Virus record (IMG/VR): IMGVR_UViG_2908567220_000004
Length of the DNA stretch: 35,453 nt
From: a virus
Taxonomy: Duplodnaviria; Heunggongvirae; Uroviricota; Caudoviricetes
Reading direction: 5' to 3' (one strand)
Shown: in pieces, positions 14,701 through 20,700 of the stretch
How the letters are laid out: each line of letters starts with the position of its first letter
How positions within the stretch are numbered: position 1 is the first letter of the stretch
Position numbers: made by a program

Positions 14701-17700
14701 AATGTCCGGAGCCATTAAAGTCTGTTGTTGAATTTGCACTGGCAACAGGCTTAAGACGCTCGAACATCATCAACCTTGAATGGCAACAAATAGACATGCA
14801 GCGCCGGGTGGCATGGATAAACCCGGAAGAGAGTAAATCAAACCGCGCAATTGGCGTTGCGCTGAATGATACTGCATGTCGCGTTTTGAAAAAACAAATC
14901 GGGAATCATCACCGTTGGGTATTTGTGTACAAGGAAAGCTGTACCAAACCAGACGGAACGAAAGCGCCAACAGTAAGGAAGATGCGGTATGACGCAAACA
15001 CAGCCTGGAAAGCGGCGCTGAGACGGGCTGGTATTGATGATTTCAGATTTCACGACTTGAGACACACCTGGGCAAGTTGGCTGGTTCAAGCCGGAGTCCC
15101 GTTGTCAGTGTTACAGGAAATGGGAGGCTGGGAGTCTATCGAAATGGTTCGTCGATATGCTCACCTTGCACCTAATCACCTTACCGAACACGCACGGCAA
15201 ATAGACTCGATCCTGAACCCATCGGTCCCAAATTCGTCCCAGTCAAAAAATAAGGAAGGTACTAATGATGTGTAACTTATTGATTTAAATGGTGCGATAA
15301 TAGGAACAAAACAAACAATAAAAATACATTGATATATAAAGACATTTCCCCATTACATCTTTGGAGATACCCCCAAAAGTACCCCCAAACAATTTTCTCT
15401 CACCACCATTTGCACATAAAGCAGCCATGTACAACTGGTAGTTGAACAGGCGGGTAGACCGTTCGTTCAGTAAATACCTGATATTTCCGCCAACGAGAAA
15501 TTGCGTTGGCTGGCAGAGTGCAAATTTGCACGATGACCTAACCCATTGATTCTTTCGAAAACCTGCAATGCAGGAAATGGGGGGAGGTAAGCCTAACCCA
15601 TTGATTATTTCGCCCCCCCCCATTGGGGGATGTCGGGAAAGTAAGCCTAAACCATGAGTAGACCTACGAAATTTTCGTAACCCCCTACGAAATTTTCGCA
15701 GTTTAATTACTCGCCAGATTAATCGCTAACCCGCTGATATTTTCGGAAACCTCAATTTGAGGAATGTACCTAAAACCATTTTTATAGCTCCGCTCCCTTC
15801 AAAGTGAAGGGTAATTTGCCAAAACAGAGAGAGCATTACTGTCTCTGGCAATCTTTATCGCGATAACGCCTGAAGTACCCTCTCGCTTCCTCATCCATAC
15901 CAAGAGCCGAATGAGTTCGCTTAACTGCCTGTCTTAAATCTCCGAATCTGTCTGTAGTTGCTGGTGGGCGTGCCGCCTTACGGATACATTCAGAGCGCCT
16001 GTTTGCTGCATGTTCACGTTCTTTATCGCCATTTGCCAGCATCATGACTTCTGCCCATCGTGCGGCAGCTCTCCGGTATAGCCCTTTTGACTCCAGCTCT
16101 TCAGCTTTCCTGTCCCTTATCATTTCTGCCTCTCAGATTATATAGATAAGCAAAAAGGTGTTGGTTCAGTTGGTTCAGTTGGTTCAATTTGTAAAGAGCG
16201 TTGTTTTTATTGTGTTTTTTCTAAAATATTGAACCAACATCAACTCATTTTGAACCAACAAAAAGTGTCCGTGAACTAACACTCTGTCAAATAGTCACTA
16301 CATATATGAACGGTGAAGACTAAATCCGCCAGCAAATAGCTTATATAGCACCGCTTTATGCCGCAGTTATGCTGGAACAGTAATCATTTCACAGAACCGC
16401 CTAACTACTATATGGCACCTGCTAAAAAGCACATCAGCCTAGTCAGTTGATCGGTGCATGGATATCCTAACAATTCAACTATATAACGTGATCTCCCATG
16501 TCGATCTACTGTCATGCAATGATTAACAAACACATAGACACATCTGCTTGGCGCATTGATTAATCACTGATCATCCATCAGGATATGCGAACCACCGTCA
16601 CCAGGTTAGGATGATTCTCAAAAGCCACCTGTATTCAATGCCTTTGATGGGTTTCATCCATAGTTATTTTCTCGTGACTGACATGGAGATTTTGATTTCA
16701 AGGTGTGCAAAAACTATCGCAGAGTACAATGGAGCTCAAATGACTGTGGCACCAAAAGATCAAAGTTTGAAATCTGTAAGGGTGGGCTTTTACACAAGCT
16801 CTGAGAATATTCGCACTAGTAACAAGGGGTTAACCGCAGAGGCCTTTAAAAATCTGTATGATCGGTGTTCTAAAGACTTCAAGATGACCCACTATGCAGA
16901 CTTTGGTGAAAGAGAACTTAAAATTCATTTTCTAGACATCTCACCCGAGGATGGCTCCTACTTCGGATTCATGTCTCGAAGAAGAAAAAGCGCAACACTG
17001 GCATATATTACAGATAAAGAGTGGGTGGAAGAGAAAATCCCTCTAGCCGGGGCAAAGACTCTTTCAGAACGTACATACTTTATTTATTATCCTCAGACAG
17101 ACATTCTAGTATTGTCTTTAAATCATTTAGGTCCACGCCATAGTGACTTAGCCTTCCTTCTTTTCAACTCCAGTGATCGCGGAGTCCCTGTTTCTTTTGA
17201 AGCCATTTGGAAAGAAGAAAGCATCAAAGAACTACTCGAAACTGGATCCAATCTAAGAAGCTGCGAGATTTCTGTGGCCATCCCAAGAAACTTCAATGCC
17301 GCACAGTATCAACTCGATGGAATGTTCGCGAATCAGATGATTGAGATGATCAGAGGCACCAGTTCAAGCCACCTGACTATTTCGTTACGCGGACATTCTC
17401 CATTAAAAAGAAAAGCAAAGGGATGGCTTGAGGATGACGTTAAAAAAAGCCTTAAGGAGATGCTAGAAAAGTTCCCTGGTGGTGATGGTCGTTTAACTTT
17501 TGAGAAAGCAAATGTTGTTGCTCAGGGCGATAAAAAGAAGAAAAGTCTTGTAGACGAAGTTCTTACGGTAAAGAAGATGGTGCCTATCCAAGCAGATGGG
17601 TATCCGACCGATACTGACGTTAAAAATGCTATGCTACAAGCAAAGAATGACAACCTTAGGTATCTAACCCAGTACTATTTGGTTAGTCAAACGTAACAGG

Positions 17701-20700
17701 AATACATTATGAGTTCTCGGAAATTGTTTGCTGCCAAGTCATTGTTTGCTCTAGCTATGGCTATTGCTGGTGCCCATTTTTTACACGACCTAGATCACAA
17801 TGCTGTCATTTCGGCTGCTGGTGCTCTTTCAACTATTTCTGGAGTTCTCTTTGGTTTTGTTTTGGCATCAGTCACCATGCTAAGTAGCTTTGATAGTTCA
17901 AAGGGAATTGTAGGCGCTCTAAAAAGTAACGGAGTACTAAAAGGCATTATTGAGGGGCTTTTTGATACAGGAACTACGCTGATCACAGCCTGCCTATTAG
18001 CAATGATCTCGATGTTTGCCCCTGTTGTCAGCAATCTGCCTCTGGATTATTATGCCCTGCTACTCGCAGGGGCATATTTGATTATATCAATGATAACTTT
18101 TTTCTTTAACTGGAAATCTTTATCTAAAATAATAAGTTACATATGATAAATATTTCAAAATGAGTCCCCCTGCTACGGATAGTCCTTGGCTTAAAAAATA
18201 CCGTCACCGCTGAATACCCACACAGTGCCCCCACCCATTTAGTTGGCATAATGTATTCAACTGATTGAGGAATGGCTCCTCTTTTACTACCAAACGGCCA
18301 TCGCTGGCGCATTCATCCGCTGGTAGTGGAACTTTTTAGCCATCAGCGCCTCCCTAAATCAATTCCTTACATCGCTCAAATTCAACAACCATTGTTGTAA
18401 TCTTGCTGCTATCAAGTAACGCCTTTGTATTACGCCGACTTTATCTTGCCAGCAACATACGCCATCCGATAATTTCGATGTTACGCGCGCGTACTTGTCG
18501 CAAAATATCAGACAAAAGCCAGATTCAGAACGTCGTGATAACCACCAGCACAACATGAAAGGTCATGTAACGCGATTTATCACACCAGATACATGTGATT
18601 GGTGTACCCGCATAAAACATTGTCATAGCGCGTCCTGTGCGCATATAGGCCGATAATCAACACATCACCACCACTCTGTCTCATGTAGAGAACAGTTTTA
18701 TGGTATCCCCCGCCATCGTGTGTGTATTGGTCGGACGTAGTTGCAAAATTTTTTGCAACTGATACCCCTCGCGCGCGTACTTGTCTCGAAATTGGTGTTT
18801 TGCTGTGGCAGTGATATCAGAAAAATCTTCCTGTTTCACATAAAGCGGATATGCGCGTACTGTAACGACCCCATCAACGGGGGCGGATTTGAAATCCCGA
18901 CCCTAGCTATGTACCAAATGCCATGTCTTGGATATATGATGATTGCCAATCTAAACAACGCTAAAGGGAGGGTTGGTGTGAATGCTCAGGCTGTCATCAT
19001 GGTTTTCCTTGGTCTGATTGTCGCAAAACTATATCCAGACTGGTGGAAAGGGGCATTAGCAACTGTCGCCATCTATTTGCTTTTATCCGTCGTTAAGCGA
19101 TCGTTCGCTAAGACCATAAATCAAGCAAAACGTTTCTCATTTAAGAATTTAATAAACTATATTACTGGTCTTATTTTTTGCCTTTCAATTTTGATCGCTT
19201 CAGCTTTTTTGCCCGTATCAATAGCTAATTTTTTTGGCGCATCATATGAGGTAGGTTATCTATTCTCTGTTTTTTGTCTTGTTCTTGCCCTTCTTTACCT
19301 GTGGATGAGAGCAAAGAACAAAAATTAGCCATCCGTGGCTAACCAGTTATTGAGCTTCTTTTTGTGATGCCTGTGCGACTCTGGTGAGCGATTGTGTGAC
19401 CGTACTGATCGCTCTGTCATATGCTGTGCTACCTTTTGGCGTATTTGCCAGACGTAACAAGGCATTTCGTATAACAGGGCTTTCGTATGCCTTCGCTGCT
19501 CCGCCTACGGCACCAGCAGCAGGAACAACAAACGCAGCCGTTTTTAGCATCCCCGCTAATACTGCTGCGTTTATGATGCCACCACCAACTAACAATCCAT
19601 AAAGCTGCTGACCATTTAAGTTTTGAACGTTCGCTTTTGCCGCGTGTCTTGTATCGTTGAGGTATTTAATAACGCCGTCCAGTTCCTTTCCATGTACGCC
19701 TTTAAAGAAAGTTGCTGATTGCTTCCTGTTCCGGTGTAACGCATTAATAAACTTCTCAACACTGATATTTCCAGACGGATCAGTCGCCTTATCTACAGCA
19801 TTCTGAACTATGGCCGCTCGTGCGTTTTGCCTACCATTGTCATCCAGAAGCCTGTAAAGCTGAGAACGTTCTGATGGGCTTTGGCTAAAAACGAGTTTTG
19901 TTACATCCTCAGGCGTGGCCTTGCCGCTGGCTATTGCCTTTTGAACGCGCGTTCTTCCCATCATGTCATTGAATTTAGACCATGAGCGATCAACCCTTGC
20001 CATATTAATGGCTTCGTCTGCTCCAAGATTTTTGGCTACGGCTTTTTTCATATCCGCCGTATATGCCTTGTAGATAATATCGCTGGCTTTCTGGAGCGTA
20101 TCTTTATCAACAGTGTCAGATGACGCCATAAATCGCTTTCGAAGATCGGTTCTGTTTTCCCTCGCCAGACGCAGGTCATTTGGTCCGCTGGTGATATCGT
20201 CTTTAAATTGCTGCAAGACTTTTACCGCGGCTCTATCCTGAGATTTGCCCGGGCGGCTTAACACGGCAATCTGATTGTCGATAGCTTTTACCGTGTTTGA
20301 GAGATCGACAGGGGTATCCCCCATAGCGTCAATTATGCGGTTATATCGCTTTCCTGCTGCCTCAATGAATTTTTGTTGCCCTTTAGTCGCAGATTCATAA
20401 AGCTGTTTATCAGAAATGCCACCCAGACCATCGCTAAATGTTCTGACTAAATTTTCTCGTGCTTGTTGTTGATTCAGCCGATTCTTACCGGTTCCAAAAA
20501 AAGGAACTCTTTCGCCTAATGTCTGAGCCTGACTCTGCATAAAGGTTTTATCTTTCAGCATGTCACTGGTCATTAACGGCAGATTTCTTTCCGATGCAAA
20601 GTCGACAGCAGCCTTTGCTTCAGGCGACATATCACCACGAACAGCCCTCGAAACCGCACTCGCTGTATTTTCCAGCCCCTTACCAATACCACCAATGCCA

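What the first reader, a model, noticed from the sequence alone, without database searches (positions are those of the whole stretch)
16611..19328. AT-rich two-gene operon (361-aa unknown protein plus 4-TM membrane protein) with a third small membrane ORF in the cargo slot of a P4/PICI-like element: candidate undescribed anti-phage system
Seen directly: genes at 16611-17696 and 17709-18146 are 12 bp apart with an RBS before the second, so they form an operon. The first product has no motif I can assign to any known family. The second is a small protein with about four hydrophobic helices. After a repeat-containing 830-bp gap comes a 117-aa membrane ORF (18978-19328, GTG start, GGAGGG RBS). The block looks AT-rich compared with neighbouring phage genes. 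It lies between the iteron clusters and converges on the ejection-protein operon, the position where P22-like phages carry sieA-type morons and satellites carry defence cargo. Inference: a cytoplasmic sensor/enzyme with a membrane effector acting by abortive infection or superinfection exclusion.
Basis: partly seen in the sequence, partly recalled or inferred. Interest (0 to 1): 0.85.

Follow-up and report, generated by a model that had tools for sequence, protein, structure and literature searches.

The report
Divergent RexAB-like phage exclusion gene pair
The two-gene operon is a very divergent relative of phage lambda's RexA/RexB exclusion system (a DNA-binding sensor plus a small four-helix membrane protein), carried as swappable cargo on a phage satellite; this gives a likely function to an uncharacterised protein family but is a known kind of defence, and the third small membrane gene is a separate unit.

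The parts
16283..18438 (.). Variable cargo cassette that carries genes A and B
   Evidence: Homology with E. coli 2013C-4081 (L098) stops at 16282 and resumes at 18439. That strain has a 61-aa AlpA-like HTH gene in this position. The Klebsiella-type element L016 shares only 16555-18142, at 82% identity. GC is 41.5%.
16740..17696 (+).
17709..18146 (+). Gene B: 145-aa four-TM inner-membrane protein, RexB-like putative effector
   Evidence: TM segments at 6-24, 40-58, 89-107 and 115-133, with positive charges inside. Lambda RexB (144 aa) has them at 8-26, 49-67, 84-102 and 116-134. phrog_8552 at E 4e-54. A B-like ORF follows A in 80 of 80 IMG/VR loci. A Vibrio family member hits the PADLOC RexB model at E 1.6e-4. 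Profile-profile comparison with RexB gives E 0.023, which is inconclusive.
18439..18938 (.). Conserved un-annotated segment of about 500 bp between the cassette and gene C; not part of the A-B system
   Evidence: Present in about 545 of 5426 E. coli genomes, mostly without A-B. No Rfam match. Contains the 23-nt repeat copies at 18484 and 18770.
18939..19328 (+). Gene C: small basic four-TM membrane protein (129 aa from ATG 18939, or 117 aa from GTG 18978); a separate, polymorphic gene
   Evidence: TM segments at 12-30, 39-57, 78-96 and 105-123; pI 10.1. Other strains carry alleles that are 34% identical or unrelated. It is present next to ykgL without gp16 or A-B in L098. No PHROG, Pfam, PADLOC or phage tblastn hit. 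It lacks the SieA motif.
16161..16258 (.). Iteron-like cluster 1 (TTGGTTCA: 3 direct and 2 inverted copies) in the PerC / gene A divergent intergenic region
   Evidence: 11 copies in the window against 1.6 expected.
24632..24740 (.). Iteron-like cluster 2 (TTGGTTCA: 3 direct and 3 inverted copies) just downstream of the primase gene
   Evidence: The paired cluster is also seen in L010 and L013.
15836..16123 (-). PerC-family regulator gene, divergent from gene A; a conserved flank of the cargo slot
   Evidence: Pfam PerC at E 3e-33. Conserved next to the slot in L010, L011 and L098.
19347..24005 (-). P22-type ejection-protein module (gp16, gp20, gp7, gp14 homologues) on which gene C converges; context only
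   Evidence: PHROG hits: phrog_770/29117, phrog_917, phrog_598 and phrog_651. PGAP names. gp16 is 67.6% identical to Lederbergvirus N7 and about 33% to Sf6/L/ST64T.

Best explanation
Genes A (16740-17696) and B (17709-18146) form a RexAB-type two-component phage exclusion module.

Shown:
- A has the two-domain RexA/RdgC fold and is a remote homologue of lambda RexA.
- B is a RexB-sized four-TM inner-membrane protein.
- The two genes are always adjacent and co-oriented.
- The pair moves as a cassette between accessory slots of unrelated temperate elements.

Inferred by analogy with lambda RexAB, P. putida RexABpp, V. cholerae Sucellos and the mycobacteriophage Rex-like systems:
- The pair is expressed from the resident element.
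- A, probably as a DNA-binding dimer, senses a feature of an infecting phage, either a protein or a replication/recombination intermediate.
- A then activates B oligomers in the inner membrane.
- B depolarises or permeabilises the membrane, stopping growth and aborting the infection.

Gene C is not part of this system.
For: Fold:
- The following hits (Chl4, Iml3, CENP-N, RdgC, 3oh8) are the structural neighbours reported for RexA itself (PMC11077077).
- BFVD also returns phage RdgC proteins.

Sequence:
- A 57-member DUF6731 profile against a 25-member RexA profile gives E 1.9e-4 over 220 colinear columns, A residues 14-279 against RexA 1-235.
- The reversed control gives 0.13 and the best of 20 column-shuffled controls 0.088.
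- Both families share the motif ..GPxxxDL.. followed by FEAIW / IEPLM.

Partner gene:
- B is 145 aa against RexB's 144 aa, with four TM segments at near-identical positions and N-in/C-in charge bias.
- An invariant His precedes TM2 in both families.
- The Vibrio B homologue hits the PADLOC RexB model at E 1.6e-4, and lambda RexA and RexB hit their own models as positive controls.

Linkage:
- A B-like ORF lies 2-24 nt after A in 78 of 80 IMG/VR loci, and on the same strand right after A in the other two.
- It is also present in L095 at 33% identity, where the gene caller missed it, in L096/L097, in phage cdtI orf54/53 and in a Vibrio Vinavirales prophage.

Context:
- At least 62 of 80 loci sit between antiterminator Q and the lysis genes on the opposite strand.
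- Here and in L016 the pair is satellite cargo.
- The cassette is replaceable, AT-rich and present in 42 of 5426 E. coli genomes.

Precedent:
- Structure-only RexAB-like pairs confer phage resistance, and both genes are required (PMC12894663; bioRxiv 10.1101/2024.07.02.601686).
Against: - There is no experimental data for this allele or, under this name, for any DUF6731 protein.
- The window proteins do not match the RexA or RexB HMMs of Pfam or PADLOC.
- The close-family profile against RexA gives only E 0.029.
- B against RexB, profile to profile, gives E 0.023 against 0.078 for the best shuffled control, which is essentially inconclusive.
- The B model has pLDDT 60 and gave no fold matches.
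- The pair is not in the immunity region next to a cI gene as in lambda.
- The RexA fold is also that of RdgC, a recombination modulator, so fold alone does not prove defence.
- In phage Butters the roles of the two Rex-like proteins are reversed.
Confidence: 0.7

Rival explanations
1. Three-gene system: A, B and the downstream membrane ORF C act together as one previously undescribed defence system.
For: All three are on the same strand, AT-rich and within 2.7 kb. C is also a four-TM protein.
Against: The cassette ends at 18438, about 500 bp before C. The C flank (18439-19337) is present at 96.6% identity in L098, where an HTH gene replaces A-B, and its upstream 500 bp occurs in about 545 genomes against 42 for A-B. 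A-B occurs without any C-like gene in lambdoid prophages, phage cdtI, Klebsiella-type elements and a Vibrio prophage. The C slot holds unrelated alleles next to the same A-B. Terminator-like hairpins follow B.
Confidence: 0.04
2. Reversed-logic Rex-like system, as in mycobacteriophage Butters gp30/gp31: the cytoplasmic protein A is the toxic or antiviral effector, and the membrane protein B only sequesters or restrains it.
For: This arrangement is documented for one Rex-like pair (discussion of PMC12894663). B-RexB homology is only weakly supported here.
Against: Four of the five described Rex-like systems use the membrane protein as effector. Strict A-B linkage fits either model. No nuclease or other toxic motif is visible in A.
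Confidence: 0.1
3. Not a defence system: A is an RdgC/RexA-fold DNA-binding protein that modulates recombination, replication or the lysis-lysogeny decision of its host element (as RexA does for the lambda switch independently of RexB), with B as a membrane tether.
For: RexA shares its fold with RdgC, binds DNA non-specifically, and biases the lambda switch toward lysis without RexB. Here the pair lies beside the iteron cluster and a PerC regulator.
Against: The pair occurs in at least three unrelated regulatory backgrounds with no fixed partner repressor: the lambdoid Q-lysis slot on the antisense strand, satellite cargo, and next to the integrase in a PM2-like prophage. An element-specific regulator would not be expected to swap this freely or to be dispensable in most copies of the element. 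The obligate membrane partner is unexplained by this model.
Confidence: 0.1
4. Lysis-related accessory: B is a holin/antiholin-like membrane protein and A its regulator, given the frequent position next to lysis genes.
For: Most homologous pairs sit beside holin and endolysin genes. Single B-family members give faint Pfam hits to holin families at E 0.03-0.05.
Against: The pair is on the opposite strand to the late/lysis operon. Here and in L016 and L008 there are no lysis genes nearby. The holin hits are single members far below cut-off.
Confidence: 0.03

Closest known systems
Phage lambda RexA/RexB exclusion system (Pfam PF15969/PF15968; PDB 8TWQ for RexA)
   Different: No match to the RexA or RexB HMMs. 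A is about 40 aa longer. The pair is not in the immunity region next to cI or under PRM, but in cargo slots (satellite, Q-lysis slot, integrase-adjacent). Trigger and phenotype are unknown.
Pseudomonas putida prophage P1 RexABpp (PP_5643/PP_5644; Sci Rep 2026, PMC12894663)
   Different: Different host and sequence family status. I could not obtain PP_5643 to test whether it is DUF6731. RexABpp lies downstream of a CI-like repressor.
Sucellos (SclA/SclB) from the Vibrio cholerae superintegron (bioRxiv 10.1101/2024.07.02.601686)
   Same: [quoted passage not shown] SclB is predicted to form a membrane pore and both genes are required. Homologues occur mostly in prophages, often in Salmonella. This matches the distribution of the DUF6731 plus four-TM pair, which also has Vibrio and Pseudoalteromonas members.
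   Different: Identity with the DUF6731 family is untested. The sequences were not retrievable here, and two genome scans returned no V. cholerae locus.
Actinobacteriophage Rex-like pairs (Sbash gp30/31, CarolAnn gp44/43, Butters gp30/31)
   Same: A prophage-encoded cytoplasmic RexA-like protein plus a membrane RexB-like protein confers heterotypic exclusion.
   Different: Distant hosts and larger A proteins (337-372 aa). Butters uses reversed roles. No sequence comparison was done here.
P22 SieA superinfection exclusion protein (comparison for gene C only)
   Same: A small inner-membrane protein gene lying just downstream of, and convergent with, ejection gene 16.
   Different: Gene C is 129 aa with four TM helices, against 162-164 aa with three. 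It lacks the FxRYPxEAxxFNK motif. It has no PHROG or tblastn similarity to any phage protein. It also occurs without ejection genes.

Membership tests
Lambda RexA family (Pfam PF15969 / PADLOC RexA) | Significant match to the RexA profile HMM | tested here: not met
   No RexA hit for gene A in Pfam at E<=1 or in PADLOC. Lambda RexA hits the PADLOC RexA model at 1e-108 as a positive control.
Lambda RexA family (Pfam PF15969 / PADLOC RexA) | RexA/RdgC-type two-domain fold | tested here: met
Lambda RexA family (Pfam PF15969 / PADLOC RexA) | Detectable remote sequence homology over the full length | tested here: met
   hhalign of A5 against A3 gives E 1.9e-4, probability 48%, 220 colinear columns. 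Controls are 0.088 or worse. The close-family profile gives only E 0.029.
Lambda RexB family (Pfam PF15968 / PADLOC RexB) | Significant match to the RexB profile HMM | tested here: inconclusive
   Window B has no hit. The Vibrio member of the same B family hits PADLOC RexB at E 1.6e-4. Profile-profile E is 0.023 against 0.078 for the best shuffled control.
Lambda RexB family (Pfam PF15968 / PADLOC RexB) | Inner-membrane protein of about 144 aa with four TM helices, N and C termini inside | tested here: met
   Hydropathy and charge-bias comparison. The low-confidence AF2 model shows four long helices.
RexAB-type system (architecture) | rexA-like gene immediately followed by a rexB-like gene, co-inherited | tested here: met
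   12-nt gap here. 80 of 80 viral loci plus L095, L096, L097, L008 and L009 show the same arrangement.
RexAB-type system (architecture) | Located in the immunity region, co-transcribed with the cI repressor | tested here: not met
   Here it is between PerC and the ejection genes of a satellite. Elsewhere it is between Q and the lysis genes or next to the integrase. True RexAB homologues fetched here all follow a cI-like gene.
RexAB-type system (function) | Both genes required for exclusion of specific phages; membrane depolarisation on activation | not testable with these tools
   Requires cloning and phage challenge.
DUF6731 (Pfam PF20505) | Membership in the homologous family defined by PF20505 | tested here: met
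   The window protein itself misses the Pfam HMM. However, its homologues at about 45% identity carry PF20505. A profile built from its family retrieves 249 clusters, and 51 of 57 sampled hit PF20505. NCBI names a member 'DUF6731 family protein'.
Sucellos (SclA/SclB) | Sequence homology to V. cholerae SclA/SclB | not tested
Genome scans found no V. cholerae locus. The descriptive features match.
P22 SieA (gene C) | Conserved cytoplasmic motif FxRYPxEAxxFNK; about 162 aa; three TM helices (types B and C have one more) | tested here: not met
   The motif is absent. Gene C is 129 aa with four TM helices. No PHROG or phage tblastn hit.
P22 SieA (gene C) | Position between gene 16 and the tailspike gene of a P22-like prophage | tested here: inconclusive
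   It is convergent with gene 16 here, but there is no tailspike. The gene also occurs next to ykgL without ejection genes.
P4-like satellite (host element) | Integrase at a tRNA gene, alpha-type primase, two iteron clusters (ori/crr-like) | tested here: met
   Integrase at 32630-33844 beside tRNA-Thr. Toprim/DUF927 primase. TTGGTTCA clusters.
P4-like satellite (host element) | Capsid-size and helper-control genes psu, delta, sid | not tested
   None are named in the PGAP annotation. No dedicated search was done.

The most novel reading that the evidence does not exclude
The DUF6731 plus four-TM pair could be a distinct, widely mobile branch of the Rex superfamily that is not the same as Sucellos or RexABpp. 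It would have its own trigger specificity. It would be the first Rex-type system known to travel as a free cassette between lambdoid Q-lysis slots, satellite cargo slots and non-tailed (PM2-like) prophages.

In this locus it would sit beside an independent, allele-switching four-TM gene (C). Gene C might be a new SieA-analogous blocker of P22-type DNA ejection, on a satellite that carries its own ejection proteins.
Probability: 0.25. Interest if true: 0.6.

Novelty: new member of a known kind. Interest (0 to 1): 0.4.

Why it matters
- It assigns a probable function and mechanism, RexAB-type exclusion, to Pfam DUF6731 and its unannotated four-TM partner (phrog_7651 / phrog_8552). Every database consulted here labels them hypothetical, and PADLOC v2 does not detect them.
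- It shows that Rex-type systems are not confined to the immunity region. They also move as self-contained cassettes among moron and cargo slots of very different temperate elements.
- Current Rex HMMs therefore undercount them.
- For E. coli genomics, it annotates a low-frequency accessory module (42 of 5426 complete genomes) in the thrW island of strains such as ABU 83972.
- It is not a new principle of immunity.

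Tried and rejected
- Direct family scans of A, B and C (Pfam, NCBIfam, PADLOC) found nothing significant. PHROGs gave only unknown-function families.
- DNA searches of the block against phage genomes, near and distant, found no match.
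- A PDB sequence search with the A profile gave only a chance IF3 hit.
- hhalign of the close A family against a single RexA sequence or the RexA family was weak: E 0.11 and 0.029. It became convincing only with a diverse profile.
- The AF2 model of B was too poor (pLDDT 60) and its BFVD search was uninformative.
- The afdb50 fold library was unavailable.
- I tried to test identity with Sucellos. Neither the paper text nor the supplement gives sequences. A peptide-pattern scan of GTDB genomes found nothing. A custom degenerate DNA motif scan found only Xenorhabdus stockiae and Citrobacter braakii. A literature search for VCA0367/0368 was unhelpful.
- An apparently orphan A in metagenome locus L095 turned out to have an uncalled B gene.
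- The three-gene-system idea was rejected on distribution.
- SieA homology of gene C was rejected.
- Rfam found no RNA family in 15200-19500.
- The consensus promoter scan found nothing above shuffled expectation.

Full report
**Where the window comes from and what surrounds the finding**

Positions 16200-19400 are 100% identical to E. coli ABU 83972 and several other strains. The right two-thirds of the window is an element integrated at tRNA-Thr (thrW) next to proA. Reading leftward from proA (34200-35453), it contains:
- an integrase (32630-33844, minus strand);
- an HTH gene, an AntA/AntB gene and an ash-family gene;
- a Toprim/DUF927 primase (24767-27526);
- homologues of P22 genes 14, 7, 20 and 16 (23544-24005, 22873-23550, 21452-22873, 19347-21452);
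- the three plus-strand ORFs of the finding;
- a PerC-family regulator (15836-16123, minus strand).

To the left is a different element. It is an IS-disrupted lambdoid prophage whose integrase (14112-15275) abuts the element. The same thrW element, with allelic variation, is present in other strains (L010, L011).

**Checking the observation**

The ORFs exist as described.
- B starts 12 nt after A's stop and has an AGGA Shine-Dalgarno 7 nt upstream.
- The first gene is probably shorter than reported. All 65 homologues are 309-323 aa and align from residue 44 of the 361-aa reading.
- PGAP annotates 16740, and GGAG precedes that ATG by 5 nt.
- In the 82%-identical Klebsiella-type copy, the first start codon after the upstream stop is the 318-aa one.
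- B has four hydrophobic segments.
- Gene C can start at ATG 18939 (129 aa, PGAP) or GTG 18978 (117 aa, strong GGAGG). The data do not decide between them.
- The block is AT-richer. GC is 41.5% for A, 40.0% for B and 38.2% for C, against 47.9% for the window and 46.5-51.2% for the ejection and primase genes.
- The 'iteron clusters' are real. The octamer TTGGTTCA occurs 11 times against 1.6 expected, in two clusters at 16161-16258 and 24632-24740 that bracket the cargo and ejection genes.

**What gene A is**

Direct scans of Pfam, NCBIfam and PADLOC found nothing. PHROGs gave phrog_7651, of unknown function.

Homologues at about 45% identity carry Pfam DUF6731. An exhaustive profile search found 249 clusters of 50% identity at E<=1e-3, and 51 of 57 sampled hit DUF6731. 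No paper in the searchable library mentions DUF6731.

Structural evidence:
- An AlphaFold model built from 37 sequences has mean pLDDT 80.5.
- The hits that follow are Chl4, Iml3, CENP-N, RdgC and the Corynebacterium epimerase 3oh8. The RexA structure paper reports the same set as RexA's own structural neighbours (PMC11077077).
- Against BFVD, the model matches uncharacterised phage proteins (E 1e-16 to 1e-9) and phage RdgC.

Sequence evidence:
- The close-family profile aligns weakly with RexA (E 0.029) through a shared motif, GPxxxDL followed by FEAIW / IEPLM.
- A diverse 57-member profile aligns colinearly over 220 columns at E 1.9e-4.
- The reversed RexA alignment gives 0.13, and the best of 20 column-shuffled controls gives 0.088.

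I conclude that DUF6731 is a remote RexA homologue.

**What gene B is**

- B is 145 aa; lambda RexB is 144 aa. TM segments fall at 6-24, 40-58, 89-107 and 115-133 in B, against 8-26, 49-67, 84-102 and 116-134 in RexB. Positive charges at the N terminus, the 2-3 loop and the C terminus are shared.
- The B family extends to 26% identity, and a His before TM2 and an LFGF motif in TM2 are invariant.
- RexB homologues fetched from four rexA loci also have an invariant His at the aligned position.
- Profile-profile comparison gives E 0.023, only slightly better than the shuffled controls at 0.078.
- The Vibrio member of the B family hits PADLOC's RexB model at E 1.6e-4, and lambda RexA and RexB hit their own models as positive controls.
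- The AF2 model of B is poor (pLDDT 60) and gave no fold matches.

Homology of B to RexB is therefore suggestive but not established. Architectural equivalence is clear.

**Linkage and mobility**

- In 78 of 80 IMG/VR loci that encode an A homologue (39-100% identity), a B-like ORF begins 2-24 nt after A's stop. The other two also have one on the same strand immediately after A.
- The pair is also present in a metagenomic locus at 33% identity, where the gene caller missed B.
- It occurs in phage cdtI (orf54/orf53), in Escherichia phages vB_EcoS-733R5 and 716R3, and next to the integrase of a PM2-like (Vinavirales) Vibrio prophage.
- At least 62 of the 80 loci place the pair between the Q antiterminator and the lysis genes of lambdoid prophages, on the opposite strand.
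- In Klebsiella-type elements it lies directly beside the satellite primase, without ejection genes.
- In this element the cassette boundaries are 16283 and 18438. Strain 2013C-4081 has identical flanks but an AlpA-like HTH gene instead.
- This A-B allele is present in 42 of 5426 complete E. coli genomes, always at 99% identity or more.

**How it most likely works**

Shown: a RexA-fold protein and a RexB-like four-TM protein are encoded by an obligately linked operon that behaves as mobile accessory cargo of temperate elements.

Inferred from the characterised systems:
- A, probably a DNA-binding dimer, senses infection and activates B oligomers.
- B depolarises or permeabilises the inner membrane and arrests the infected cell.

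For lambda this is the standard model. For P. putida RexABpp and V. cholerae Sucellos, both identified as Rex-like only by structure, both genes are required for protection, and membrane damage or early lysis was observed (PMC12894663; bioRxiv 10.1101/2024.07.02.601686). A lysine run in A (K265-K268) aligns within 3-4 residues of RexA R219/K221, which are needed for DNA binding. This is weak supporting inference.

I put 0.7 on this explanation. The rivals are a Butters-type reversed logic (0.1), a non-defence DNA-transaction or switch role (0.1), a three-gene system (0.04) and a lysis accessory (0.03).

**Gene C**

Gene C is a small, basic (pI 10.1), four-TM protein. It lies outside the cassette.
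- Its slot is polymorphic. One allele is 34% identical but shares the first 33 residues, with a recombination joint near 19041. Another is an unrelated signal-peptide protein.
- It also occurs next to the core gene ykgL without ejection genes or A-B.
- It has no detectable relatives in phage databases.
- It fails the SieA tests: no FxRYPxEAxxFNK motif, and 129 aa with four TM helices against 162-164 aa with three.

Its position convergent on gene 16 is SieA-like, so a role in blocking P22-type DNA entry is a reasonable but untested guess.

**Comparison with what is known, and novelty**

The pair works like RexAB and is a remote homologue of it, at least for A. It fails HMM-level membership of the RexA and RexB families, and it is not in the immunity region. 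The 2026 P. putida paper counts only five described Rex-like systems.

The Sucellos description fits this family well: Rex-like by structure, missed by Pfam, and found in prophages, often in Salmonella. I could not obtain the sequences to test identity.

I therefore rate it a new member of a known kind. The useful contributions are the DUF6731-RexA link and the cassette behaviour. It is not a new mechanism. Interest is 0.4.

Noticed in passing
window 19347-24005 (with primase 24767-27526 and integrase 32630-33844): The thrW satellite-like element has an integrase, an ash gene, AntA/B, a Toprim/DUF927 primase and iterons. It also carries an intact P22-type gp14-gp7-gp20-gp16 ejection-protein module, but no capsid, portal, terminase or tail genes. 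The arrangement is conserved in other E. coli strains with allelic gp16/gp20 variants (L010, L011, L013). A satellite that supplies only ejection proteins would be unusual, and one literature search found no description of one.
   Followed up: partly
window 16161-16258 and 24632-24740: There are two clusters of the octamer TTGGTTCA (3 direct + 2 inverted, and 3 direct + 3 inverted), giving 11 copies against 1.6 expected. One lies just downstream of the primase gene and the other 8.4 kb away beside PerC. This resembles the P4 ori/crr iteron arrangement. The paired clusters recur in L010, L013 and L016.
   Followed up: partly
window 18439-18938: An un-annotated segment of about 500 bp upstream of gene C is conserved at 95-99% in about 545 of 5426 complete E. 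coli genomes, far more than carry A-B. It has no Rfam match and contains two copies of a 23-nt repeat, CGCGCGCGTACTTGTC.. (18484 and 18770). Its function is unknown.
   Followed up: partly
window 18939-19041 versus L011 14742-14843: Gene C alleles share an almost identical first 33 codons and then diverge to 34% identity. This suggests a recombination joint inside the gene, in the manner of cassette switching.
   Followed up: partly
window 1-15300: The left part of the window is a separate lambdoid prophage. It has a cI-like repressor (9916-10608), DUF968, Q (3612-4406) and an integrase (14112-15275). It is truncated by IS1 (1-504) and by a DDE transposase (1761-2741), which sits in the Q-downstream slot where other prophages of this type carry the A-B homologue pair.
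   Followed up: partly
window 15537-15770: Three copies of a unit of about 46 nt (CCTAACCCATTGATT...; 63-100% identity) lie at the junction between the lambdoid prophage integrase and PerC. They may be att-related or REP-like sequence.
   Followed up: no
L008 (Vibrio phage 10N.286.54.F4_PE001) 1389-2896: A PM2-like (Vinavirales) temperate Vibrio phage carries the same A-B pair right after its integrase. The cassette therefore crosses between tailed and non-tailed phage lineages.
   Followed up: partly
P0250 and one other distant DUF6731 representative: Two distant DUF6731 proteins weakly match the PADLOC candidate model PDC-M67A (E about 1e-4 to 7e-4). PADLOC's candidate set may already contain a related family.
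   Followed up: no
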